64,000 nt of DNA from Methylocystaceae bacterium (GCA_050259135.1 JBLNAA010000138.1:5318-69317), one strand, 5' to 3'; shown: positions 227 through 63,426, counted from the stretch's first letter. Numbers and translations are program-made. Notes: generated by a model not told the origin, from the sequence alone.

Positions 227-1560
227 TGGCGGACAAACCGACCGGTATCGTATTTTTCCCCGCCTTTGACTGGGCCATATCCCCCACCCACCCGGAAAGA
301 GAAGAAAGATTGCTTTATACACGCGATCAGCTATTCGAGGAAGGGATTATGGATCATCCCTCGGTATTGGAGATGCAGCCTCGTATAGCTTCCGCGCATG
401 ATATTGCCCGGGTGCATTTTTGCGTACCCGGGGTGGATAGAATTGCTACCGAAGCTCACCTGATTGCTGCCGGCGGGGCCTTAACCATCGGAGATGCCTA
501 CATGAAGGGGAGAATAAAGAACGGGTTTGCCCTAGTTCGGCCTCCCGGGCATCATTCAATGCGGGTTACCCATGGTAACCGTGGTTTTTGTAATATTAAT
601 AATGAAGCAGTTCTGGTGGAATATTTACGCAGCCGCTATCAGGTTAAACGCATAGCCATTGTCGATACGGATGTGCACCACGGTGACGGCACCCAGGATA
701 TCTTTTGGCATGATCCCGACCTGCTTTTTATTTCCTTTCATCAGGATGGACGGACCTTATATCCCGGTACCGGGTTTATGGATGAAAACGGCGGGCCGCT
801 AGCACTGGGTACTACGGTCAATGTACCTCTGCCTCCAGGCACCACCGATGAGGGAATCCTTTATGTGCTTGAACATTTGGTGTTACAGTTAATAAAATCA
901 TTTAAACCTGATCTGGTTATTAATTCAGCCGGACAGGATAACCACTTTACTGATCCGCTGGCTAATATGTGTTTTTCCGCCCGCGGTTATGCGCGCTTAA
1001 ATCAGCTGCTGGCTCCCAATATTGCGGTTTTGGAAGGCGGGTACTCGGTGGAGACAGCTTTGCCATATGTAAACACCGGCATCATAATGGCGATGGCTGG
1101 CCTGGATACTTCCGCTTTACGTGAACCTGATTATAATGAAGACAGATTCAGGGAAAGCGGCGGACGTATGGCGCAGCTGAAAGCAATTGTTGACCATCAG
1201 GGAGAGATGTTTTCCCGGCGTGACAAGCTGGTCGAGGCCGCCCGGAAAAAGTATGGCCCCTACTGGCAGCGGCGCCGCAGTATTTACTATGATACGGATC
1301 TTATTCAGGAACAGCAAAATGAAAGTCTGCGTATGTGTACTGACTGTTCAGGATTATTGAGTATAAATTCTCAGGCGCGCGGACTAAACGTTTTGGGTTT
1401 AACTCTGCCATTCGGCGCCTGCTCCGCCTGCAGCCAACAAGCAGAGGAAGCTTATCACCAGGCGCAAAACCAACATTATGACTATGTTTATTTACAGGAT
1501 AAATCCCGGGATCACTTTTTGACCTATAACTGCCGAACCCAGGAGGAGAAAATTATCTAA
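226..1560 (+). CDS. histone-deacetylase-family (arginase/deacetylase fold) protein, AcuC/acetylpolyamine-amidohydrolase-like, with ~130-aa Cys-containing C-terminal extension
   Basis: Motifs RPPGHH, DTDVHHGDGTQ, SAGQD and LEGGYS. C-terminal CTDC...CSAC pair. Stop overlaps mutL ATG (TAATG). Confidence 0.85.
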   Translation: MADKPTGIVFFPAFDWAISPTHPEREERLLYTRDQLFEEGIMDHPSVLEMQPRIASAHDIARVHFCVPGVDRIATEAHLIAAGGALTIGDAYMKGRIKNGFALVRPPGHHSMRVTHGNRGFCNINNEAVLVEYLRSRYQVKRIAIVDTDVHHGDGTQDIFWHDPDLLFISFHQDGRTLYPGTGFMDENGGPLALGTTVNVPLPPGTTDEGILYVLEHLVLQLIKSFKPDLVINSAGQDNHFTDPLANMCFSARGYARLNQLLAPNIAVLEGGYSVETALPYVNTGIIMAMAGLDTSALREPDYNEDRFRESGGRMAQLKAIVDHQGEMFSRRDKLVEAARKKYGPYWQRRRSIYYDTDLIQEQQNESLRMCTDCSGLLSINSQARGLNVLGLTLPFGACSACSQQAEEAYHQAQNQHYDYVYLQDKSRDHFLTYNCRTQEEKII

Positions 1561-3275
1561 TGGCGATCAGGGTTTTAGAAGATCACTTGATTAATCAGAT
1601 TGCTGCCGGTGAAGTGGTAGAGAGGCCTGCCTCTGTGGTTAAAGAGCTGCTGGAGAACAGTTTGGACGCTGGTGCCTCGAACATAGAGGTGGAAATTGAA
1701 GAAGGTGGTCAGGGACTTATTCGCGTTATTGATAATGGATGTGGTATTCCGGCATCGGAGATGGAACTGGCCTTTACCCGCCATGCTACCAGTAAATTGA
1801 ATAATGAGTCCGACCTGGTGGCAATCTTAACCCTTGGTTTTCGAGGTGAGGCCCTGCCCAGTATCGCTTCGGTGGCCAAAGTAAAGATGGTATCATCAAC
1901 TGATGGGCAGCAGGGTTATGGCATGCAGTTGGCAGGGGGAGAGATAATGACCCGGGGGGTACAAGCTTCTCCTCCCGGTACCATGATCGAGATAAGTGAT
2001 CTTTTTTACAACACACCGGCCCGGCTTAAGTTCCTGAAAAGCAAAGTTACTGAAGCTTTACAGGTTCAAAATATCGTTTTTAAATTAGCTCTTTCCCATC
2101 CTGAGGTTAGTCTTAGTTACCGGCAAAATGGACGCTTACTTTTTAAAACACCAGGTATGAACAGTTTGATTGATGCTGTAAATGCAGTTAAGGGAACAGG
2201 TTATGCCGATGGTTTTCTTACAGTTAATTTGGAAGCTGAATATCGTGTCTGGGGTTTGATTTCGAAGATAGATTTTAAGCGAAAAAACCGCCGCGAAGAA
2301 ATTTTCCTGGTTAATCATCGACCAGTGCATAGTCCTTTATTGATGAGAGCTTTAGATGAAGCTTATCGCGGACGTTTGGTCAGCGGAGAATATCCTGCTT
2401 GTTATCTGCATCTGGAAATACCGCCAGACCAGATTGATGTCAATGTGCATCCCCAGAAGTCAGAAGTGCGTTTTCGTGATGAAGATCGGGTGTTTCGTAC
2501 CATAGCCAGCGAGGTCAAACGCACTCTGGACGGGTATAACCAGCGCGCCTGGCAAACATTCAATACGTATACCGGTAATGACAGCAGCACGGTAATCAAT
2601 CCAGTGATTGCCGAGGCTGCAGTCAGTCTCTACAACGCAGACGGGTTAGACCATGAACCAATATATCATACCAATATAGATCACCCTCGAGCTCAGATAA
2701 TCAACCATGAAAATGATATCATGGTATTCGGTCAGCTTTTTAACAGCTATATTGTTGCCACCAGCGGTGATTCCCTATTGCTGATTGATCAACATGCTGC
2801 TGCTGAGAGCCTGCGCTACCATGAGTTGCTGCAAAATCAGGAACTGTGGGTTCCACAGGATTTACTAATGCCATTAAGCATTACTATCGGCAAACGCCGG
2901 ATTGAACAATTTGAGTACATTAAGGAGTCTCTTGGCCGAGTAGGTTTTATGGCTGACACCCTGGGGGATGAAACCCTGGTATTGCGCTCAGTTCCAACCT
3001 GTGCCAAAGGTCGTGAAGAAGAGCTTTTTGATTGGCTGCTGGAAGACCTCTTTACTGGTGAAATCGGGATTGACGAAAAAGAGTTTTTTAGGCAGGCAGT
3101 AGCTTCCATGGCCTGCCATCAAGCGATTAAAGCCAACCAGCGATTGGAAATGATTGAAATGGAGATACTGGTTCGTAAAATGATTGAGCTGCCGGAGGCC
3201 GCACATTGCCCCCATGGCCGACCTACCTATATTACTATTCCTCGAAACCGAATAGCTGAGTGGTTTAAACGATGA
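1560..3275 (+). CDS. mutL: DNA mismatch repair protein MutL (endonuclease-type)
   Basis: GHKL ATPase motifs (LENSLDAGA, DNGCGI, GFRGEAL). C-terminal endonuclease motifs DQHAAAESLRYHE, ACHQAIKAN and CPHGRP. Confidence 0.95.
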   Translation: MAIRVLEDHLINQIAAGEVVERPASVVKELLENSLDAGASNIEVEIEEGGQGLIRVIDNGCGIPASEMELAFTRHATSKLNNESDLVAILTLGFRGEALPSIASVAKVKMVSSTDGQQGYGMQLAGGEIMTRGVQASPPGTMIEISDLFYNTPARLKFLKSKVTEALQVQNIVFKLALSHPEVSLSYRQNGRLLFKTPGMNSLIDAVNAVKGTGYADGFLTVNLEAEYRVWGLISKIDFKRKNRREEIFLVNHRPVHSPLLMRALDEAYRGRLVSGEYPACYLHLEIPPDQIDVNVHPQKSEVRFRDEDRVFRTIASEVKRTLDGYNQRAWQTFNTYTGNDSSTVINPVIAEAAVSLYNADGLDHEPIYHTNIDHPRAQIINHENDIMVFGQLFNSYIVATSGDSLLLIDQHAAAESLRYHELLQNQELWVPQDLLMPLSITIGKRRIEQFEYIKESLGRVGFMADTLGDETLVLRSVPTCAKGREEELFDWLLEDLFTGEIGIDEKEFFRQAVASMACHQAIKANQRLEMIEMEILVRKMIELPEAAHCPHGRPTYITIPRNRIAEWFKR

Positions 3276-54643: not shown

Positions 54644-55738
54644 ATGAAAAGAATTTCGTCAGTAATAAAACTGGGTCAATTAAATATCGGTGGCGGGAAT
54701 CCGGTTTATGTTCAGAGTATGACTAATACTGATACTCGGGATATTCCAAATACCGTGAGACAGATTAACCATCTGGCTGAAAATGGCTGCGAAATTATTA
54801 GAGTTGCGGTACCTGATGAGGAAGCTGCTCTAGCGATAAAATTGATTAAAAATCAAATCACCATACCCCTGGTAGCTGATATCCATTTTAATCATCGGCT
54901 GGCACTGCTCAGTTTACAAAGCGGATGTGATGGATTACGGCTGAATCCCGGCAATATTGGCAGTGCCCCCAAAGTACGTGAGGTAGTGGCAGCTGCCCGT
55001 GATTTAGGGGTACCCATTCGTATTGGCGTCAATTCCGGATCAGTTTCCCGGGAACTATTAACCAAGTATGGCGGACCAACACCAGAGGCTATGGTTGAGA
55101 GTGCCCTAGAACATATTGCCATTTTGGAGAAAATTCATTTCGGGCAAATAAAAATATCGTTAAAATCATCATCGGTGATATCCACTATTGCAGCTTACAA
55201 TTTGATTGCCGAAAAGGTTTCCTATCCCCTTCATCTCGGAGTTACAGAAGCCGGAACCATTAAACCTGGATTGATAAAATCGGCATTGGGTATCGGCCAT
55301 CTGCTTCTGCAGGGGATAGGTGACACCATTCGAGTGTCACTTACTGCCAATCCGGTAGAAGAAGTAAAAGCGGCCTGGCAGATGTTAAGTGCCTGTGAAT
55401 TACGCCGCCGGGGAGTGGAAATAATATCCTGCCCGACCTGCGGAAGAACCGAAATAAATCTGATTGCATTGGCTCAAGAGGCTGAAAATAGATTAAGTCA
55501 TTTAAAAACCCCATTGAAAGTTGCTATTATGGGATGTGTAGTCAATGGGCCGGGTGAGGCCCGGGAAGCAGATGTAGGAGTGGCAGGCGGACGAGGGGTA
55601 GGTATATTGTTCCGCCATGGTGAGGTCGTACGTAAGGTCAACGAGAACGAGCTTCTTGACGAACTGGTTAAAGAAGCGGAGGCGTTGGATGCCGAAATTA
55701 TTCATAACACTGGAGGTCCCCAATATGCTGGTAAGTGA
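54644..55738 (+). CDS. ispG: 4-hydroxy-3-methylbut-2-en-1-yl diphosphate synthase
   Basis: SCPTCGRT and GCVVNGPGEA Fe-S ligand motifs. ATG at 54644. Confidence 0.93.
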   Translation: MKRISSVIKLGQLNIGGGNPVYVQSMTNTDTRDIPNTVRQINHLAENGCEIIRVAVPDEEAALAIKLIKNQITIPLVADIHFNHRLALLSLQSGCDGLRLNPGNIGSAPKVREVVAAARDLGVPIRIGVNSGSVSRELLTKYGGPTPEAMVESALEHIAILEKIHFGQIKISLKSSSVISTIAAYNLIAEKVSYPLHLGVTEAGTIKPGLIKSALGIGHLLLQGIGDTIRVSLTANPVEEVKAAWQMLSACELRRRGVEIISCPTCGRTEINLIALAQEAENRLSHLKTPLKVAIMGCVVNGPGEAREADVGVAGGRGVGILFRHGEVVRKVNENELLDELVKEAEALDAEIIHNTGGPQYAGK

Positions 55739-57425
55739 AATGTTGATACCAACTTTAAGAGAAGATCCGGCCGAAGCTGAGCTGATAAGCCACCGTTTAT
55801 TATTAAGAGCTGGATTTATTCGCAAGACTACCGCCGGAGTATATACATATTTACCCCTGGCCAGCCGAGTTTTGAGAAAGATTGAACAGATTGTCCGTGA
55901 GGAAATGGATAATGCCGGCGGACAGGAGGTTTTAATGCCGATAATCCAACCTCGTGAATTATGGGATGATTCAGGACGGTGGGCAGTTTACGGTGATGAG
56001 ATGTTTCGCTTAAAAGATCGTCATGAACGTGAATTTTGCCTGGGACCAACCCATGAAGAAGTGGTTACTGATCTGGTCAAACGTGATGCTCATTCTTATC
56101 GGGATTTCCCTTTAATGCTTTACCAGATCCAAAATAAATACCGGGATGAGATCAGACCGAGGTTTGGGCTGATGCGGGGCCGTGAGTTTATTATGAAAGA
56201 CCTATATTCGTTTGATATTAACCAGGAAGGCCTGGATAGGTCTTATCAGAAAATGTATAAGGCTTATCAAAAGATATTTGAACGTATGGGTCTGGCTTAC
56301 CGGGTAGTTGAAGCAGACAGCGGCGCAATTGGCGGCAATGCCTCCCATGAGTTCATTGTTTTAGCCAGCAACGGTGAATCCGTGATTGTCTACTGTGATG
56401 AGTGCCAATATGCAGCCAATGTAGAAAAGGCAGAGGCCGTCCCCCAACCGGTATCTTCTGGTGCCAAATCAGGCAATCTCGAAAAGTTTCCCACCCCGGG
56501 TCTGAAAACTATCGACGATTTGGTGCAGGCCACGGGTGAACCAGCTAGTCAATTAGTAAAAACTTTAATTTATGTGGCTGATGGTAAACCGGTAGCAGTA
56601 TTGATTCGCGGTGACCGGGAACTTAATGAGATAAAACTTAAAAACCTCCTGCAGGCCAATGAACTGGATATGGCTGATGAAGAAAGAGTAAGGCAGACAG
56701 TTGGTGCCGGCTTTGGTTCGCTGGGACCGGTTAACCTGCCGTATCCAATTTATGCCGATTTGGAGATCCGGTCGCTGTCCAGTTTCAGTTGCGGTGCTAA
56801 TGAAGATGGCTATCACTACCGACAGGTTCAGCCGGATCGTGATTTTAAAGTCGAAGCTTATCATGACCTGCGCAATGCTATCGCGGGAGATTACTGTCCT
56901 CATTGTCATAATGCCAGTCTGCTCGAAACCAGAGGCATTGAGGTCGGGCATATATTTAAATTGGGTACCAAGTATTCAGAAAAACTTGGTGCCACCTATC
57001 TGGCCGAAAATGGGCAACAGTATCCAGTAATTATGGGATGTTACGGTATCGGTGTATCGCGTACCATGGCAGCTGCTATTGAGCAGTGTTATGATGAAGA
57101 TGGTATAATTTGGCCGGTAGCGATCGCTCCTTATCAGGTAGTCATTATTCCCGTTAACAGTAAAGATCAGGGACAAAAGGATACCGCATTACAGCTGTAC
57201 CAGGAACTCAGGCAGCAGGGATTTGAAGTAGTTCTGGATGATCGTGATGAACGTGCCGGAGTCAAATTCAAAGATGCTGACCTGGTAGGCTATCCGGTTA
57301 GAATTACCGTAGGTAAAGCTCTTAAGGACGGGGAAGTAGAGATTAAGGTTCGTTGGGAAAGTGAAAATAATCGAGTTGCGGTAAATGAGGCGGTTGCTAG
57401 GGTTAATCATTTGATCAGAGAATAA
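55725..57425 (+). CDS. proS: prolyl-tRNA synthetase (bacterial type with editing insertion)
   Basis: Class II motifs (FRLKDRHEREFCLGPTHEE, RPRFGLMRGREFIMKDLYSF, GCYGIGVSR). ATG 55725 follows GGAGG and overlaps the ispG stop by 14 nt; the track start at 55617 lies inside ispG. Confidence 0.95.
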   Translation: MLVSEMLIPTLREDPAEAELISHRLLLRAGFIRKTTAGVYTYLPLASRVLRKIEQIVREEMDNAGGQEVLMPIIQPRELWDDSGRWAVYGDEMFRLKDRHEREFCLGPTHEEVVTDLVKRDAHSYRDFPLMLYQIQNKYRDEIRPRFGLMRGREFIMKDLYSFDINQEGLDRSYQKMYKAYQKIFERMGLAYRVVEADSGAIGGNASHEFIVLASNGESVIVYCDECQYAANVEKAEAVPQPVSSGAKSGNLEKFPTPGLKTIDDLVQATGEPASQLVKTLIYVADGKPVAVLIRGDRELNEIKLKNLLQANELDMADEERVRQTVGAGFGSLGPVNLPYPIYADLEIRSLSSFSCGANEDGYHYRQVQPDRDFKVEAYHDLRNAIAGDYCPHCHNASLLETRGIEVGHIFKLGTKYSEKLGATYLAENGQQYPVIMGCYGIGVSRTMAAAIEQCYDEDGIIWPVAIAPYQVVIIPVNSKDQGQKDTALQLYQELRQQGFEVVLDDRDERAGVKFKDADLVGYPVRITVGKALKDGEVEIKVRWESENNRVAVNEAVARVNHLIRE

Positions 57426-57452
57426 AAATTGGGTCACGTTGGGGGGATATCG

Positions 57453-58118
57453 ATGAGCATAGCCGAAATCATACTGAGGCTAGCGCTGGCCTGTTTGCTA
57501 GGGGCACTTATCGGGTTGGAACGTGAAAGCCTGAATCGACCTGCAGGATTACGCACTTATACTCTGGTATGCGTCGGCTCAGCTCTGGCAATGATTGTAT
57601 CTTTGGACATGTACTATCAGTACCACAATACTGTCAATGCTGATCCCGGGCGTATTGCGGCGCAGGTAGTAAGCGGCATCGGCTTTTTGGGGGCTGGTAC
57701 CATCATGCGGGAAGGCGCTACGGTCAGAGGGCTGACCACTGCCGCTGGCCTCTGGGTGGTTGCCTGTGTAGGACTGGCAGCCGGGGCAGGACTGTATCTG
57801 CCGGCAATTATTACTACCGCCCTGGTACTTTTTGTTCTGATCTATTTTTTCCGGTTTGAACAGCGGATCACCGGAATGAGAGAATATAAAGCCTTTATCA
57901 TGACTATCGATGACCGGCCTGGGCAAATTGGACGGATTGGATCAGTACTGGGTGATCTGGGGGTATCAATTAAAAACATTAACCTTCACCATCTGGATGA
58001 TGATGATGGATTGGAAGTTGAGGTCATGCTTTATCTACCTACCCACATTCATCCCAGTGATGTAATTGACCACTTGTCTAATATCGCCGGAATGCGCAGT
58101 GTCGATCGCTTGAATTAG
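57453..58118 (+). CDS. MgtC/SapB-family membrane protein with ACT-like C-terminal domain
   Basis: GALIGLERESLNRPAGLRTYTLV is the MgtC signature. C-terminal FIMTIDDRPGQIGRIGSVLGDLGVSI is ACT-like. ATG 57453 follows GGGGGG. Confidence 0.8.
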   Translation: MSIAEIILRLALACLLGALIGLERESLNRPAGLRTYTLVCVGSALAMIVSLDMYYQYHNTVNADPGRIAAQVVSGIGFLGAGTIMREGATVRGLTTAAGLWVVACVGLAAGAGLYLPAIITTALVLFVLIYFFRFEQRITGMREYKAFIMTIDDRPGQIGRIGSVLGDLGVSIKNINLHHLDDDDGLEVEVMLYLPTHIHPSDVIDHLSNIAGMRSVDRLN

Positions 58119-58120
58119 TT

Positions 58121-61100
58121 TTGGGGAGTGTACCAGTGGGTAGCTTTTATAACTGGGTTACCAACGAATTGCATATAAACCTTAACTCTTCCTGGTTAGA
58201 CTGCGAAGTAGTTGATGTTGATATTTATCGTGAAAGCCAGCGTCTGCAAATTACGCTGGCGCTTCCTTGTGCCGTAAACAATGCTGAACTTGAACACCTG
58301 GAAAGCTTGATTGCTGCCAAAGTCCGGGTAAATAAAGTGGGTATCAAACCAAAGTGGCTATTGCCTGATGAAACCTTGAATTCATTGATAAAAGAGCAGG
58401 AGGCAGAACTGCGTCATGTAATACTTAACGAAGACCTTTTTAACACCGAATTAGTCACCTGGGATATCGACGAGGGAAAGATTAATTTGGTGGCTGCCGA
58501 CCTGAAAGTCTGGGAGAGTTTGTTGGAAAATGAAGTATGCTCAAGGCTGGCAGAATGGATAAATGATCAGTATCGGGTAAATGTCCTGGTTAAGACCACC
58601 TGCGGCCAAAGGGTTAACAACGGGTGTCAGCCCCAGGAAGAACAGATGGTAAAACTCAAGGCGGCCACTTTTATCGAAGGCCGTGAAAAAAAGAATGTTA
58701 CCCGCAAATCGGCTGGAAAGAATGAAAAAGCTCCGCCATTCATTGATAATCTTCATGATTTAGATGAAGGTATGGGCCGGGTTACGATAAATGGTCAGGT
58801 GTTTGCCGTCGACACCAAAACCTTAAAAGGCAATCGAAATCTGGTCATTTACTCGATTACCGATTATACTGATTCCCTCCTGGTTAAACACTTTCTCTCA
58901 GATAATCAAGAAACCGTTAATGCGGTTGGTGAATGGATACAAATTGCCGGACATCTCCAGTATGATAATTTTGAACATGAGATGGTGATGATTGCTGACC
59001 ATATCAGGTTGATCGAGCCGCGGCAGCGGGAGGATAATGCACCAGAAAAAAGGGTTGAATTACACGCTCATACGGTTATGAGCGCCCTTGACGGTATGGT
59101 ACCAGTAGCAGAGCTGGTTAAAACCGCTGCCCGCTGGGGACATCAAGCGATTGCGATTACCGATCATGGGGTGGTACAGGCCTTCCCTGAGGCCTACCAG
59201 GTGGGGGAAAAAGCCGGAATAAAGGTCATTATGGGTATGGAGGGTTATCTAGTTGATAAAGATATCCAGTCCAGAGCTTATCATATAATTCTGTTAGCCA
59301 GGAATTATGTCGGACTGCGTAATCTTTACCAACTGGTTTCCTGTTCTTATTTGGACAATTTTTATCGGACTCCCAGACTGAAACGGCAGGACATTATTGA
59401 TCATCGGGAGGGCCTGATTATAGGTACTGCTTGTGAGGCAGGGGAATTATTTCAGGCTCTGCTGCAGGGTGATGATAACAGTCAGCTGGAACAGATAGCT
59501 GCCTTTTATGATTACATCGAAATCCAACCGCTGGGTAACAATGCCTTCATGTTGCGGGAAAACGTTGTGGACACGGAGGAAGAATTAATCAGAATCAATC
59601 GGCAGCTGGCTGATCTGGGAAATCGTTTGAACTTACCGGTAGTAGCTACCGGAGATGTTCACTTTCTTGAGCCTGGTGACGAGGTTTTCAGACGGATTCT
59701 GCAAGCGGGTAAAGGGATGGATGATGCTGAATTCCAGGCTCCATTATATCTTCATACTACGGAAGAGATGCTGAATGAGTTTAAGTATCTGGGCGAAGAG
59801 GAAGCAAGAAGGGTGGTTATTACCAATCCTCAGGCGATCGCCGATCAGATTGAAACGATAAAACCGGTTCCCGATGAATTGTATACCCCGACTATTGATG
59901 GCGCCGATGAAGTAATCACCAGCTTATCCCGGGAAAAAGCCGTGCAATTATATGGACAGCCGCTGCACCCGCTGGTAACTGCACGTTTGGATAAAGAATT
60001 AACCTCCATTGTCGGCCACGGCTTCAGCAACCTGTATTATATTGCCTACCGATTAGTCAAAAAATCCAACGAGGATGGGTATCTGGTAGGATCCAGGGGT
60101 TCGGTCGGTTCATCATTTGTCGCCTATCTGACTGGAATAACCGAGGTAAACCCGTTGCCTCCGCATTATGTCTGCCCGGTCTGCCAGCACAGTGAGTTTA
60201 TCACCGATGGGTCAATTGGCTGCGGGGCTGACCTGGAACCAGCTTTCTGTTCGGAGTGCGGCCATGAATATCGGCGTGATGGTTTCGATATTCCCTTTGA
60301 AACATTTTTAGGTTTTGACGGTGATAAGGTACCGGATATTGACCTCAACTTTTCCGGGGATTATCAGGCCAACGCTCATCAATTTGTTGAGGAGCTGTTT
60401 GGGCACGACAAGGTTTTTCGAGCCGGAACTATTTCCACGGTAGCAGAAAAAACCGCTTATGGATTTGTTAAGAAGTACATGGAAGCCAAGTCGATCAAAT
60501 ATCGAACCCCGGAAATCGAACGATTGGTCAAGGGGATTACCGGAGTGAAACGAACTACCGGACAGCATCCCGGCGGTCTGATGATTGTACCCCGGGAAAA
60601 AGATGTTCACGAATTTACCCCGCTGCAGCATCCGGCTGATGATCCGAAATCCGGGGTAACAACTACCCATTTTGACTATCATTCGATTTCGGAGCGGTTA
60701 GTTAAGGTTGATATCCTGGGCCATGATGATCCTACCATGATTAGAACCTTGAATGATCTGACCAAATTTGACGCCAGATTAGTTCCCATGGACGAACCAA
60801 AAGTAATGAGTTTGTTTTCAAGTACTGAAGCCCTGGGGGTTACCCCCCAGCAGATCAGATCTGAAGTCGGAACTTACGGAGTTCCCGAATTTGGCACCCG
60901 TTTTGTCAGGCAGATGCTGGAGGCAACCAGGCCCTGCACTTTTGCCGAACTAATTCGCATCAGCGGATTGTCACATGGCACCGATGTTTGGCTGAACAAT
61001 GCACAAACCTTGATTGCAGAACAAACGGCCACCTTAAATGAGGTAATTGCCACCCGTGATGATATAATGACCTATCTGCTCCGCAATCAGGTTCCTGCTA

Positions 61101-61756
61101 AAATGGCCTTTAAAATCATGGAAAGTGTACGTAAAGGCAAGGGGTTAACCGATGAATATATTGATGCCATGCAGGGATGTGAAATACCTGAGTGGTATAT
61201 TAATGCCTGCCTGAAAATTAAATACATGTTCCCCAAAGCTCATGCGGTAGCCTATGTTATGATGGCTTACCGCATCGCCTATTACAAGGTTTATTATCCG
61301 CAGCAGTTTTACGCCGCCTACTTTTCCATCCGGGCGGAGGACTTTGATACCGAGGCTGCCCTGGCTGGCTATGACCGGGTGGCAGAAAGACTGAAGGAAA
61401 TTGAAAAGATGGGTATGGGAGCCCCTCCCAAAGAAAAGAATCTATTACCGGTGTTGGAATTAACTCTGGAAGCTCTGGCCCGAGGGATTAAATTCCTGCC
61501 AGTAAATATATGGGAATCAGATGCTGCCTATTTTAAAGTGACTGATGATGGGATTATTATTCCGTTTAATGCTTTACCAGGAGTAGGCAACCAGGCTGCC
61601 CGGGCAATTGTGGAAGCCCGAAAAGATGGCTCTATATCTTCAGTTCAGGATTTGCAGGTCAAAGCGCATATTTCTACCCCTGTCGTGGAAATACTCAAAA
61701 ATGCAGGCTGTCTGGCTGAGTTACCTGAAAGCTCACAAATTGCGCTTTTTGCCTGA
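58121..61756 (+). CDS. polC: DNA polymerase III PolC-type alpha subunit, lacking the internal DEDDh 3'-5' exonuclease domain
   Basis: PolC landmarks occur in order: OB fold (VTINGQVFAVDTKTLKGNRNLVIYSITDYTDSLLVKHF), PHP (RVELHAHT, ITDHG, TGDVHFL), Zn module (CPVCQHSEF..CSECGH), GSRGSVGSSFVAYL, KRTTGQHPGG, HGTDVW. Only 1211 aa, with no FDxETTG, HNxxFD or HRAxxD motifs. The start may be GTG 58136, which follows GGGGAG. Confidence 0.9.
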   Translation: MGSVPVGSFYNWVTNELHINLNSSWLDCEVVDVDIYRESQRLQITLALPCAVNNAELEHLESLIAAKVRVNKVGIKPKWLLPDETLNSLIKEQEAELRHVILNEDLFNTELVTWDIDEGKINLVAADLKVWESLLENEVCSRLAEWINDQYRVNVLVKTTCGQRVNNGCQPQEEQMVKLKAATFIEGREKKNVTRKSAGKNEKAPPFIDNLHDLDEGMGRVTINGQVFAVDTKTLKGNRNLVIYSITDYTDSLLVKHFLSDNQETVNAVGEWIQIAGHLQYDNFEHEMVMIADHIRLIEPRQREDNAPEKRVELHAHTVMSALDGMVPVAELVKTAARWGHQAIAITDHGVVQAFPEAYQVGEKAGIKVIMGMEGYLVDKDIQSRAYHIILLARNYVGLRNLYQLVSCSYLDNFYRTPRLKRQDIIDHREGLIIGTACEAGELFQALLQGDDNSQLEQIAAFYDYIEIQPLGNNAFMLRENVVDTEEELIRINRQLADLGNRLNLPVVATGDVHFLEPGDEVFRRILQAGKGMDDAEFQAPLYLHTTEEMLNEFKYLGEEEARRVVITNPQAIADQIETIKPVPDELYTPTIDGADEVITSLSREKAVQLYGQPLHPLVTARLDKELTSIVGHGFSNLYYIAYRLVKKSNEDGYLVGSRGSVGSSFVAYLTGITEVNPLPPHYVCPVCQHSEFITDGSIGCGADLEPAFCSECGHEYRRDGFDIPFETFLGFDGDKVPDIDLNFSGDYQANAHQFVEELFGHDKVFRAGTISTVAEKTAYGFVKKYMEAKSIKYRTPEIERLVKGITGVKRTTGQHPGGLMIVPREKDVHEFTPLQHPADDPKSGVTTTHFDYHSISERLVKVDILGHDDPTMIRTLNDLTKFDARLVPMDEPKVMSLFSSTEALGVTPQQIRSEVGTYGVPEFGTRFVRQMLEATRPCTFAELIRISGLSHGTDVWLNNAQTLIAEQTATLNEVIATRDDIMTYLLRNQVPAKMAFKIMESVRKGKGLTDEYIDAMQGCEIPEWYINACLKIKYMFPKAHAVAYVMMAYRIAYYKVYYPQQFYAAYFSIRAEDFDTEAALAGYDRVAERLKEIEKMGMGAPPKEKNLLPVLELTLEALARGIKFLPVNIWESDAAYFKVTDDGIIIPFNALPGVGNQAARAIVEARKDGSISSVQDLQVKAHISTPVVEILKNAGCLAELPESSQIALFA

Positions 61757-61898: not shown

Positions 61899-62366
61899 TT
61901 GCAAAATCATGAACTTGTCGCTCGCCTCGAAGAAAAATTGGAAGTATTGTTGCAGCCAAAAGGGTTGGAAGTGGTTGACGTACAGTACCTGTCATTTGAA
62001 GGTAGTATGGTGCTCCGAATTTTCATCGATAACCCTGAAACGGGAGTAGACCTTCAGACTTGTGAGCGAACCAGTCGGGTGATTAGTGAATGGTTGGATA
62101 TCAATGATCCTATCCCGGGAGATAGCTATCTGTTGGAAGTATCGTCACCGGGTATTGACAGGATACTCAAGAAAGACCGTGACTTTAAGCGCTTTGAGGG
62201 CAGTCAGGTTAAGGTTAAACTCAAGCAGAAAATTGATGGCCAGCGCAATCTTAAAGGTATTTTAGTTGGTTATGACCCGGAAAGTATCACGATCATGGTT
62301 GACGATAAATCATGGCAATTGCCGCGGGCACAAATAGCTTATACGCGTTTGGATCCTGAAATATAA
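61899..62366 (+). CDS. rimP: ribosome maturation factor RimP (YlxS)
   Basis: LEVSSPGIDRILKK motif; lies upstream of nusA. TTG start follows AAGGTGG. Confidence 0.9.
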   Translation: MQNHELVARLEEKLEVLLQPKGLEVVDVQYLSFEGSMVLRIFIDNPETGVDLQTCERTSRVISEWLDINDPIPGDSYLLEVSSPGIDRILKKDRDFKRFEGSQVKVKLKQKIDGQRNLKGILVGYDPESITIMVDDKSWQLPRAQIAYTRLDPEI

Positions 62367-62382
62367 GAGGAGGATAGAGGGA

Positions 62383-63426
62383 ATGGCAAATGAACTCATC
62401 CAGGCATTGACCGACATCGAAAAGGAAAGAGGCATTCCCAAGGATGTTTTAATAGATGCGATTGAATCAGCTCTTAAAACTGCCTACAAAAAGAACTTCG
62501 GTTCCAATCAGAATGTTACCGTCGAGTTAAACCCTATCACCGGCGAGGTGACTGTGTTTGCCCGCAAGTTGGTAGTGGAAGAGGTTACCGACGATCGCAC
62601 TCAGGTATCATTAAGCGAAGCCCAGGAAAGCAACCCGGAATTACAGCTGGATGATGAAATGATATTTGAGGTTACCCCGGCGGAATTTGGCCGTATTGCT
62701 GCTCAGACTGCCAAACAGGTAGTTATTCAGCGGCTCAGAGAAGCGGAACGTACTCTTATTTATGATGAGTTTTCCAGCCGCGAAGGTGAATTAGTTACCG
62801 GTACTGTAGCCAGAGTTGAGCAAAAAATAGTATACCTTAATCTGGGAAGAACTGAAGCAACCATGCTGCCTCAGGATCAAATTGCATCGGAAAGCTATTA
62901 TCCGGGTATGCGGATTAAGGGATATATTTATGAGGTTCGTCGTTCGGCCAAAGGACCGCAGGTGTTTATATCTCGATCCCATCCTAATTTTCTGAAAAGG
63001 CTATTTGAATTAGAGGTACCAGAAATATATGATGGTTTGGTTGAGATCAAATCCATTGCCCGTGAAGCCGGAGCCAGGTCCAAGATTGCTGTTTATTCGC
63101 GGGACGAAAAGATTGACCCGGTCGGATCCTGTGTCGGCCCCAGGGGTATTCGGGTACAAAATATTGTTCGTGAGTTAGGCGGCGAAAAGATCGATATTAT
63201 TAAATGGTCGACTGATGTGGCAGAGTTTGTAGCTAATGCCCTCAGTCCTTCGCGGGTAGTCTATGTAAATGTATTTGAAAATGAAAAAACTGCCCGGGTG
63301 GTAGTCCCCGATTATCAATTGTCACTGGCAATCGGTAAAGAGGGGCAAAACGCCCGTCTGGCAGCCAAACTAACCAGTTGGAAGATAGATATTAAGAGTG
63401 AAAGCCAGTTTGAGGAAGGAAGTTAA
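62383..63426 (+). CDS. nusA: transcription termination/antitermination factor NusA
   Basis: N-terminal domain, S1 domain (GELVTGTVARVEQKIVYLNLG) and KH domains (VGSCVGPRGIRVQNI, AIGKEGQNARLAAKLT). Confidence 0.95.
   Translation: MANELIQALTDIEKERGIPKDVLIDAIESALKTAYKKNFGSNQNVTVELNPITGEVTVFARKLVVEEVTDDRTQVSLSEAQESNPELQLDDEMIFEVTPAEFGRIAAQTAKQVVIQRLREAERTLIYDEFSSREGELVTGTVARVEQKIVYLNLGRTEATMLPQDQIASESYYPGMRIKGYIYEVRRSAKGPQVFISRSHPNFLKRLFELEVPEIYDGLVEIKSIAREAGARSKIAVYSRDEKIDPVGSCVGPRGIRVQNIVRELGGEKIDIIKWSTDVAEFVANALSPSRVVYVNVFENEKTARVVVPDYQLSLAIGKEGQNARLAAKLTSWKIDIKSESQFEEGS

What the first reader, a model, noticed from the sequence alone, without database searches (positions are those of the whole stretch)
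58121..61756. PolC replicase with the proofreading exonuclease domain cleanly absent
Seen in sequence: the ORF is 1211 aa and carries every PolC landmark in order (N-domain, OB fold, PHP, Zn module, palm, fingers, C-terminal HhH region). However, it reads ...GIKVIMGMEGYLVDKDIQSRAYHIILLARNYVGLRNLYQLVSCSY... across nt ~59231-59300. In B. subtilis-type PolC, as I recall the sequence, about 200 aa lie between the equivalents of 'LVDD' and 'YHATLL', carrying ExoI (FDVETTG), ExoII (AHNASFD) and ExoIII (HRAxYD). None of these motifs occurs anywhere in this ORF. The two PHP halves are fused in frame.

Established knowledge: PolC-type replicases are characterised by a DEDDh exonuclease nested in the PHP domain. 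An engineered Exo-deleted PolC, used for crystallography, retains polymerase activity.

Inference: proofreading could be supplied in trans by a stand-alone DnaQ-like protein. It could instead come from the PHP domain itself, since all PHP metal-ligand motifs look intact here (HAH, ALD, DHG, MEG, YH, CEAGE, DVH), as reported for some DnaE1 enzymes. A third option is that this is one of two polC paralogues. Its location in the canonical proS-polC-rimP-nusA slot argues that it is the main replicase.
Basis: partly seen in the sequence, partly recalled or inferred. Interest (0 to 1): 0.8.

Follow-up and report, generated by a model that had tools for sequence, protein, structure and literature searches.

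The report
PolC replicase naturally lacking its exonuclease
This is a genuine chromosomal PolC DNA replicase whose built-in proofreading exonuclease domain is cleanly missing, but the same architecture was described in 2013-14 and is common in Clostridia-type bacteria, so it is a real but already known variant whose proofreading mechanism has never been tested biochemically.

Summary
ORF 58121-61756 (+) is an orthologous PolC: NCBIfam equivalog 1510 bits against a cutoff of 873. It skips about 200 profile positions exactly where the DEDDh exonuclease sits inside the PHP domain. No RNase_T/DEDDh signal exists in the ORF or in any frame of the 64-kb window. An AlphaFold model superposes on the engineered delta-Exo Geobacillus PolC crystal construct at TM 0.95 and 2.0 A. 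All nine PHP metal ligands (HHDHEHCDH), the Zn-module cysteines, the palm aspartates and a C-terminal clamp motif (QIALF) are intact. The gene sits at proS-mgtC-polC-rimP-nusA.

The architecture is not new. Timinskas et al. (NAR 2014) reported that 6% of PolCs lack the Exo insert, all in Clostridia/Negativicutes paired with DnaE1. Here, 83 of the 120 nearest proteins and 57 of 80 species-representative genome loci are Exo-less, including Syntrophomonas, Moorella, Heliorestis, Sporomusaceae and many gut Oscillospirales. NJ trees need 7-11 gain/loss transitions and the junction linkers differ between clades, so loss is recurrent. All 135 Exo-less PolCs keep a perfect PHP site. The most likely proofreader is the PHP metal centre, which is inferred; it is supported by a 30-fold mutator from a PHP-ligand mutation in C. 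thermocellum PolC. Interest is low to moderate.

The parts
58121..61756 (+). [quoted passage not shown] It is 1211 codons from TTG 58121. The likely real start is GTG 58136, giving 1206 aa.
   Evidence: (NF001688 1510 bits, TIGR01405 1406 bits)
58136..58750 (+). Poorly conserved PolC N-terminal region (residues ~6-210). It is not matched by the Pfam NI/NII models.
   Evidence: Timinskas et al. note that PolC NTDs are poorly conserved
58778..59014 (+). OB-fold domain (residues ~220-298), N-terminal to PHP as in PolC.
   Evidence: beta-barrel strands at model residues 10-88; aligns to 3F2B; Foldseek OB/RPA hits
59051..59251 (+). N-terminal half of the PHP domain, with ligands H315, H317, D324, H349 and E374.
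59252..59278 (+). Junction linker VDKDIQSRA (residues 378-386). It replaces the ~200-aa DEDDh exonuclease insert and forms a confident beta-hairpin turn.
   Evidence: pLDDT 91-95 across the junction
59279..59920 (+). C-terminal half of the PHP domain, with ligands H388, C438, D512 and H514.
   Evidence: C438 is equivalent to C. thermocellum C669 / Geobacillus C670
59915..61141 (+). Pol3 core (palm, thumb, fingers). It includes the Zn module (C685, C688, C710, C713), the palm aspartates D739 and D741, and the GHDD motif at 867-870.
61484..61729 (+). Tandem helix-hairpin-helix domain (HHH_6, residues 1122-1203).
61736..61750 (+). C-terminal beta-clamp-binding-type motif QIALF (residues 1206-1210).
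   Evidence: QxxLF-type C-termini occur in the other Exo-less PolCs
55617..57425 (+). proS (proline-tRNA ligase), the upstream synteny anchor. It is 100% identical to NCBI MGE5381153.1.
57429..58118 (+). mgtC/sapB-family gene inserted between proS and polC. The arrangement is shared with Syntrophomonas loci and with the 78%-identity relative.
61899..63426 (+). rimP and nusA, the downstream synteny anchors.

Best explanation
This is the orthologous chromosomal PolC replicase of an uncultured Firmicute related to the Syntrophomonadaceae. The DEDDh (DnaQ-like) exonuclease, normally nested in the PHP domain, has been excised in frame, leaving a 9-residue hairpin.

Shown:
- The polymerase is otherwise complete: OB fold, PHP, Zn module, palm/fingers with catalytic aspartates, HhH and a C-terminal clamp motif.
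- It folds like the engineered delta-Exo Geobacillus PolC, which is polymerase-active.
- It belongs to a large, previously described class of natural Exo-less PolCs confined to Clostridia/Negativicutes-type lineages.
- In NJ trees this class arose by repeated independent losses.

Inferred:
- 3'-5' proofreading is done by the trinuclear metal centre of the PHP domain itself, as in Mycobacterium tuberculosis and Thermus DnaE1.
- In PolC+DnaE1 lineages the PHP site is already a working proofreader, so the DEDDh insert is redundant and can be lost repeatedly.
- A DnaE1 partner with its own intact PHP site is expected elsewhere in the genome.

The confidence given (0.6) is for the whole statement including the inferred PHP proofreading. 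The shown part alone (a genuine, known-type Exo-less PolC) is about 0.95.
For: Orthology and completeness:
- PolC equivalog models score far above their cutoffs, and the protein aligns end to end with 3F2B.
- The AF2 model has pLDDT 89.9 and matches 3F2B/3F2C at TM 0.95, rmsd 2.0 A.
- The gene lies in canonical synteny.

Exo absence.

The class is known: Timinskas 2014 report that 6% of PolCs lack Exo, only in Clostridia/Negativicutes and all paired with DnaE1.

Abundance: 83/120 proteins and 57/80 genome loci are Exo-less.

Recurrent loss:
- Fitch parsimony gives 9 changes on the NJ tree and 7-11 in 39 bootstrap replicates.
- Junction linkers differ in length (about 6 to 45 aa) and in sequence between clades.

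PHP as proofreader:
- HHDHEHCDH is intact in the query and in 135/135 Exo-less PolCs from all independent clades.
- The Bacilli PolCs in the PDB read N at ligand 8.
- The 2026 NAR survey scores clostridial PolC PHP domains as 'active' and those of PolC+DnaE3 systems as often 'inactive'.
- C. thermocellum PolC C669Y, which changes the PHP cysteine ligand equivalent to C438 here, gives a ~30-fold mutator.
- The independent Exo-less clades show no convergent compensatory substitutions, as expected if nothing new had to evolve.
Against: - No natural Exo-less PolC has been assayed, and no such paper was found.
- PHP ligand conservation does not discriminate: Exo+ clostridial PolCs keep it too (58/59), and it could be conserved for structural reasons.
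- The C669Y mutator arose in an Exo+ enzyme. It could act by destabilising the PHP scaffold that carries the Exo domain.
- PHP exonuclease activity has been demonstrated only for DnaE1-type enzymes, as far as I know.
- The rest of this genome is unavailable, so neither a DnaE1 partner nor the absence of a dedicated DnaQ was shown.
- The trees are NJ on a query-biased sample without outgroups. The direction of change (loss rather than gain) rests on the Exo+ state of Bacilli, Fusobacteria, Thermotogae and Tenericutes PolCs reported in the literature.
Confidence: 0.6

Rival explanations
1. Proofreading is supplied in trans by a stand-alone DnaQ/epsilon-like DEDDh protein that docks on PolC, as epsilon docks on the PHP domain of E. 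coli alpha.
For: Bacterial proteomes carry on average more than 3 stand-alone DnaQ homologues (PMC12926913). Timinskas et al. note that an intact PHP site does not preclude epsilon binding in Firmicute DnaE1.
Against: - No DEDDh ORF exists in any frame of the 64-kb window.
- No DEDDh ORF lies within +-10 kb of polC in 80 related genomes.
- No gene is recurrently linked to polC.
- At least 7 independent losses would each need a pre-existing partner.
- The 2026 survey assigned no dedicated DnaQ subunit to Clostridia.
Confidence: 0.17
2. PolC is not the bulk replicase in these organisms. DnaE1, with its own active PHP, replicates the chromosome, and the Exo-less PolC has a restricted role that tolerates lower fidelity.
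For: Timinskas et al. raise exactly this possibility. They note that all Exo-less PolCs occur in PolC+DnaE1 genomes and that some Clostridia have DnaE1 only.
Against: - The gene keeps its canonical slot.
- All catalytic, Zn-module and clamp-binding residues are intact.
- The core is strongly conserved, at 50-60% identity across classes.
- A polC point mutation alone gives a genome-wide 30-fold mutator in C. thermocellum, so PolC synthesises a large share of the DNA there.
Confidence: 0.15
3. The Exo-less gene is a paralogue, and a second, full-length Exo+ polC elsewhere in the genome is the real replicase.
For: It cannot be excluded for this genome, because only one contig is available. One Thermotogae genome has an Exo-less extra copy.
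Against: - The gene occupies the orthologous proS-polC-rimP-nusA slot.
- In Clostridia/Negativicutes the Exo-less PolCs are not extra copies, according to Timinskas et al..
- No second C-family polymerase occurs in the window or in any fetched flank.
Confidence: 0.04
4. The absence is an artefact: an assembly collapse, a recent deletion or a pseudogene.
For: This exact PolC protein is missing from the 15-billion-protein collection although its neighbour ProS is present. That could mean it was not called as a normal CDS in the source record.
Against: - The ORF is uninterrupted at 1211 codons.
- The same junction occurs in an independent metagenome contig at 78% identity and in more than 130 other assemblies.
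- The hairpin at the junction is modelled with confidence.
- All functional residues are conserved.
Confidence: 0.02

Closest known systems
Natural Exo-less PolC of Clostridia/Negativicutes (Timinskas, Balvociute, Timinskas and Venclovas, NAR 2014; PMC3919608)
   Same: PolC with an intact PHP metal site and no DEDDh insert, from a Clostridia-type lineage. The nearest named relatives (Syntrophomonas, Syntrophomonadaceae, Moorella, Heliorestis, Sporomusaceae) have the same architecture and the same junction position.
   Different: Nothing architectural. This protein is at most 78% identical to anything in the collection. The pairing with DnaE1 could not be checked for this genome.
Engineered Geobacillus kaustophilus PolC delta-N delta-Exo (PDB 3F2B/3F2C/3F2D)
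   Same: 52% identity, TM 0.95 and rmsd 2.0 A over about 1000 residues. The Exo domain is replaced by a short linker at the same point in the PHP domain.
   Different: The crystal construct is artificial and also lacks the N-terminal domain. Geobacillus has N rather than D at PHP ligand 8, and the wild-type enzyme proofreads with its DEDDh domain.
PHP-domain proofreading DnaE1 (Mycobacterium tuberculosis DnaE1, PDB 5LEW/7PU7; Thermus Pol III alpha)
   Same: The same nine-ligand PHP motif (HHDHEH[C/H]DH) and no integral DEDDh domain. This is the proposed working analogue.
   Different: A different C-family branch (DnaE1 rather than PolC), with the OB domain elsewhere. There it is about 20-22% identical with TM ~0.66. 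PHP exonuclease activity is shown for those enzymes and only inferred here.
Canonical Exo+ PolC (B. subtilis, S. aureus; 9QPC)
   Same: Orthologous: the same genomic slot, domain order, Zn module, catalytic residues and C-terminal clamp motif.
   Different: It lacks the ~200-aa DEDDh exonuclease, the hallmark of the family.

Membership tests
[quoted passage not shown] | Scores above the curated cutoffs of the equivalog models (NF001688, TIGR01405) | tested here: met
   1510 bits against 873, and 1406 bits against 1043
[quoted passage not shown] | PolC domain order: OB fold N-terminal to PHP, then Pol3 core, then HhH at the C-terminus | tested here: met
   Pfam domain order; end-to-end alignment and TM 0.95 to 3F2B; OB strands in the model
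[quoted passage not shown] | DEDDh 3'-5' exonuclease inserted in the PHP domain (the family hallmark) | tested here: not met
   No PF00929 hit at E<=1; ~200 profile or chain positions skipped; Exo HMM negative with 37/37 positive controls
[quoted passage not shown] | Catalytic palm aspartates and the four-Cys Zn module | tested here: met
   D739/D741 in PDIDLNF, the GHDD motif, and C685/C688/C710/C713
[quoted passage not shown] | Beta-clamp binding motif (QxxLF type) | tested here: met
   QIALF at residues 1206-1210; sequence match only, binding not tested
Exo-less PolC variant (Timinskas 2014) | PolC without the Exo insertion and with a conserved PHP metal site | tested here: met
Exo-less PolC variant (Timinskas 2014) | Found in a Clostridia/Negativicutes-type Firmicute | tested here: met
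   The nearest PolC and ProS relatives are Syntrophomonadaceae and the synteny is Firmicute. The source record is labelled Methylocystaceae, which conflicts with this.
Exo-less PolC variant (Timinskas 2014) | Paired with a DnaE1 (not DnaE3) in the same genome; single polC copy | not testable with these tools
   Only this contig of the genome is available. There is no other C-family polymerase in the window.
PHP-type proofreading exonuclease (as in M. tuberculosis / Thermus DnaE1) | All nine metal ligands HHDHEH[C/H]DH present | tested here: met
   H315, H317, D324, H349, E374, H388, C438, D512, H514; 135/135 Exo-less relatives
PHP-type proofreading exonuclease (as in M. tuberculosis / Thermus DnaE1) | Metal-dependent 3'-5' exonuclease activity on mismatched primer ends | not testable with these tools
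   Needs enzymology. The only indirect support is the C. thermocellum C669Y mutator.
Stand-alone DnaQ/epsilon proofreading subunit | A DEDDh gene linked to polC or present in the window | tested here: not met
   No hit in the six-frame window or in the +-10 kb flanks of 80 loci. The rest of the genome was not searched.

The most novel reading that the evidence does not exclude
In PolC+DnaE1 Firmicutes the PHP metal centre, not the DEDDh insert, is the principal proofreader of PolC. That would explain why the DEDDh domain has been discarded at least seven separate times, always with a perfect PHP site retained and with no compensatory change elsewhere in the enzyme. This protein would then be a natural PHP-only-proofreading PolC replicase, a mechanism so far shown only for DnaE1 enzymes.
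Probability: 0.45. Interest if true: 0.55.

Novelty: already known. Interest (0 to 1): 0.3.

Why it matters
Textbooks describe PolC by its built-in DEDDh proofreader, and PolC is an antibiotic target (ibezapolstat). A large, recurrently arising class of natural Exo-less PolCs exists, and it includes cultured syntrophs and acetogens and many gut Oscillospirales. That means replication fidelity in PolC+DnaE1 bacteria must be organised differently from the B. subtilis model.

The class has been known from comparative genomics since 2013-14, but no member has been characterised biochemically. This particular gene adds another member and no new principle. The useful additions here are:
- the evidence for repeated independent loss;
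- invariant PHP sites in 135/135 Exo-less enzymes;
- the link to the C. thermocellum PHP-ligand mutator.

Together these make 'PHP proofreading in PolC' a directly testable hypothesis.

Tried and rejected
- Exact-sequence look-ups of the PolC with starts at 58121 and 58136 found nothing on record. A look-up of the 100%-identical ProS (P0121) for its contig also found nothing in the position index.
- The genome-contig scan did not contain the window's own genome; the best match was ~52% Syntrophomonas. So a second polC, dnaE1 and dnaQ in the same genome could not be checked.
- The supplements of both NAR surveys were searched for per-genome polymerase sets of Syntrophomonas, Moorella, Heliorestis and Syntrophothermus. 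Only genome lists were held.
- The Rfam scan of the window gave no hits.
- A search for convergent substitutions shared by the independent Exo-less clades found none at strict thresholds. One trivial I-to-L change at residue 610 appeared at relaxed thresholds.
- A search for stand-alone Exo-like or additional C-family polymerase ORFs in the flanks of 80 loci found none.
- I considered using the last large protein search with an isolated Exo domain to look for stand-alone relatives. I rejected it because the top hits would be swamped by Exo+ PolCs.
- The ibezapolstat variant-PolC paper does not mention the exonuclease at all.
Full report
**1. The observation**

The ORF is present exactly as described: 58121-61756 on the + strand, 1211 codons from the first TTG after the stop of the upstream gene. 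Comparison with the nearest relative suggests the real start is the GTG at 58136, giving 1206 aa. That relative starts at the homologous valine, and a GGGGAG Shine-Dalgarno sequence lies at 58123-58128.

Pfam finds PHP (313-463), DNA_pol3_alpha, the finger domain and HHH_6, and no RNase_T even at E<=1. The NCBIfam PolC equivalog models score far above their cutoffs: NF001688 at 1510 bits against 873, and TIGR01405 at 1406 bits against 1043. Each matches in two stretches, the second being query 384-1210 against profile 612-1444. Against solved structures the protein aligns end to end with 3F2B, the engineered delta-N/delta-Exo Geobacillus PolC. It aligns in two pieces with full-length PolC 9QPC (query 213-383 to chain 258-434; query 383-1210 to chain 636-1471), so about 200 residues of the full-length chain have no counterpart.

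In a MAFFT alignment with 120 relatives the query has 36 residues where Exo+ PolCs have about 235, between GxEGYL and YHIIxL. I built an HMM from the 37 Exo domains in that set. It recovers all 37 controls but finds nothing in the query or in any of 647 six-frame ORFs of the whole window (best E=0.22). The ExoI/II/III motif patterns are absent.

The junction is VDKDIQSRA (residues 378-386, nt 59252-59278). H315, H317, D324, H349, E374, H388, C438, D512 and H514 give the canonical HHDHEHCDH pattern. The palm aspartates (PDIDLNF), the GHDD motif, the four Zn-module cysteines and a C-terminal QIALF clamp-type motif are all present.

**2. Structure**

An AlphaFold2 model of residues 211-1211, built with a 37-sequence alignment, is confident: mean pLDDT 89.9 and pTM 0.82. 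The junction is modelled as a tight beta-hairpin with pLDDT 91-95.

Foldseek places the model on 3F2C/3F2B at TM 0.95/0.95 and rmsd 2.0 A over about 1000 columns. Against full-length 9QPC it gives TMq 0.93 and TMt 0.77, the difference being the Exo domain. The natural protein is therefore a close structural counterpart of the engineered Exo-deleted enzyme.

**3. Context and origin**

The window carries a B. subtilis-like chromosomal arrangement. In order it runs: mutL, miaA, dprA, topA, trmFO, xerC, hslU, a long flagellar/chemotaxis operon, sigD, rpsB, tsf, dxr, rseP, ispG, proS, mgtC, polC, rimP, nusA. So this is the orthologous polC slot, with an mgtC-family gene inserted between proS and polC. 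The same proS-mgtC-polC-rimP-nusA order occurs in three Syntrophomonas loci, and mgtC-polC-rimP-nusA occurs in the 78%-identity metagenome relative.

No other ORF in the window exceeds 694 aa, and no second C-family polymerase is detectable.

ProS is 100% identical to NCBI MGE5381153.1, which is labelled 'MAG: Methylocystaceae bacterium' and lies on a 70,121-bp contig. Every other line of evidence points to a Syntrophomonadaceae-related Firmicute, so the contig is probably mis-binned.

**4. It is not new**

Timinskas et al. [quoted passage not shown] They found all such variants in Clostridia and Negativicutes, except one extra copy in Thermotogae, and always in genomes that pair PolC with DnaE1. 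In their summary table, 16% of PolCs in PolC+DnaE1 systems lack the internal exonuclease.

My searches show how common the class is:
- 83 of the 120 best protein hits are Exo-less. They include Syntrophomonas/Syntrophomonadaceae MAGs, Neomoorella thermoacetica, two Heliorestis species, Propionispora, Sporomusaceae and Peptococcaceae.
- 57 of 80 species-representative genome loci are Exo-less. They include S. wolfei subsp. methylbutyratica and dozens of Acutalibacteraceae, Ruminococcus and 'Eubacteriales' gut MAGs.

**5. What the comparative data add**

On an NJ tree of 194 PolCs (999 shared columns, Exo region excluded), parsimony needs 9 Exo gain/loss changes. In 39 bootstrap replicates of a 115-taxon subset it needs 7-11. 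The query lies in one large Exo-less clade of 86. Separate Exo-less clades of 30, 12, 3, 2 and 2 members are interleaved with Exo+ clades among Oscillospirales-type sequences.

The linkers left behind differ in length (about 6 to 45 residues) and in sequence between clades. The flanking PHP strands are retained, and in some clades residues such as ...KKLKSYHQ match the Exo+ sister clade. This indicates repeated, independent, precise excisions. Loss rather than gain is the likely direction because PolCs of Bacilli, Fusobacteria, Thermotogae and Tenericutes are Exo+ according to the literature. I did not include those outgroups.

All 135 Exo-less PolCs keep HHDHEHCDH, the Zn cysteines and the palm aspartates; 58 of 59 Exo+ ones keep the PHP motif too. 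No substitution is shared convergently by the independent Exo-less clades. No stand-alone Exo-like gene lies within 10 kb of polC in any of the 80 loci.

**6. Mechanism**

It is shown that this is a complete, conserved PolC polymerase lacking the DEDDh domain. The identity of the proofreader is inferred. I favour the PHP trinuclear metal centre, for these reasons:
- The nine ligands are invariant across every independent loss.
- The 2026 NAR survey (PMC12926913) classifies clostridial PolC PHP domains as 'active', and says those of PolC+DnaE3 systems are often 'inactive'. Consistent with that, the Bacilli PolCs in the PDB read N at ligand 8.
- In C. thermocellum, which has an Exo+ PolC and a DnaE1, the single substitution C669Y changes the PHP cysteine ligand, equivalent to C438 here. 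[quoted passage not shown]
- PHP exonuclease proofreading is established for DnaE1 of M. tuberculosis and Thermus (cited).

If the PHP site already proofreads in PolC+DnaE1 lineages, the DEDDh insert is redundant. That would explain both the recurrent loss and its restriction to those lineages.

The caveats are these. PHP conservation is equally strong in Exo+ relatives and could be structural. C669Y might act through the nested Exo domain. No natural Exo-less PolC has been assayed; no such paper was found.

**7. Rivals**

- A trans-acting DnaQ homologue is possible, since bacteria carry several. It has no support from linkage here and would have to be available at each independent loss.
- DnaE1 could be the bulk replicase, with PolC in a restricted role. 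Timinskas et al. raised this. It is weakened by the conservation of every functional element and by the genome-wide mutator effect of a polC allele in C. thermocellum.
- A paralogue scenario cannot be excluded for this one genome. It conflicts with the orthologous slot and with the published survey.
- An assembly artefact or pseudogene is effectively excluded by the intact ORF and by the same junction in many independent assemblies.

**8. Verdict**

Residual interest lies in the untested biochemistry, namely which activity proofreads for an Exo-less PolC. That question applies to the whole class, and cultured representatives are available for testing. Interest 0.3; novelty: already known.

Noticed in passing
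window 55725-57422 (proS) and the whole window: ProS is 100% identical to NCBI MGE5381153.1, 'MAG: Methylocystaceae bacterium' (an alphaproteobacterial label), on a 70,121-bp contig. The contig's gene content, its synteny and all its best hits are Firmicute (Syntrophomonadaceae-like, 64-68% for ProS and 50-56% for PolC). The contig is probably mis-binned or mislabelled. Similar odd labels occur among the PolC hits: Chitinophagales (P0046), Ignavibacteriales (L003) and Burkholderiales (L054).
   Followed up: partly
window 58121-61756: This exact PolC protein is absent from the 15-billion-protein collection under either plausible start, and there is no hit at 90% identity or above, although ProS from the same contig is present. 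The polC may have been called differently, for example as a pseudogene or with another start, in the source record. This is unexplained.
   Followed up: partly
window 58121-58138: The first in-frame start (TTG 58121) lies 3 nt after the mgtC stop. The GTG at 58136, with GGGGAG about 7 nt upstream, matches the start of the nearest relative and is the more likely initiation codon (1206 aa).
   Followed up: yes
window 57429-58118: An MgtC/SapB-family gene with a C-terminal ACT-like region sits between proS and polC. The same insertion is seen in three Syntrophomonas loci (L001, L002, L022) and in L081. It is therefore a lineage marker of this Syntrophomonadaceae-like group and not part of the canonical proS-polC junction.
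   Followed up: partly
loci L007-L076 (Acutalibacteraceae, Ruminococcus and 'Eubacteriales' gut and rumen MAGs): Many Oscillospirales gut MAGs carry Exo-less PolCs that arose independently of the Syntrophomonas/Moorella clade, with longer and more variable linkers. Some of the linkers contain a CENCS-like motif. A recent paper on ibezapolstat sparing of Oscillospiraceae via PolC variation does not mention the exonuclease at all.
   Followed up: partly
protein P0084 (1330 aa, 'MAG: Firmicutes bacterium'): This PolC has an intermediate insert of about 70-107 aa at the Exo position and no Exo HMM hit. It may be a degraded remnant of the exonuclease domain, that is, a loss in progress.
   Followed up: no
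window 1560-3275: A mutL gene is present at the start of the window, so mismatch repair is likely retained in this organism. That bears on how much fidelity must come from proofreading.
   Followed up: no
window 13723-46000: A large flagellar/chemotaxis gene cluster (fliF, fliG, fliI, fliK, flgE, fliM, fliN/Y, flhB, flhA, flhF, cheB, cheA, cheC, sigD, FapA-like) lies on the same strand, and GC skew is uniformly positive across the window. This is consistent with a leading-strand, PolC-type, strand-biased gene organisation.
   Followed up: no
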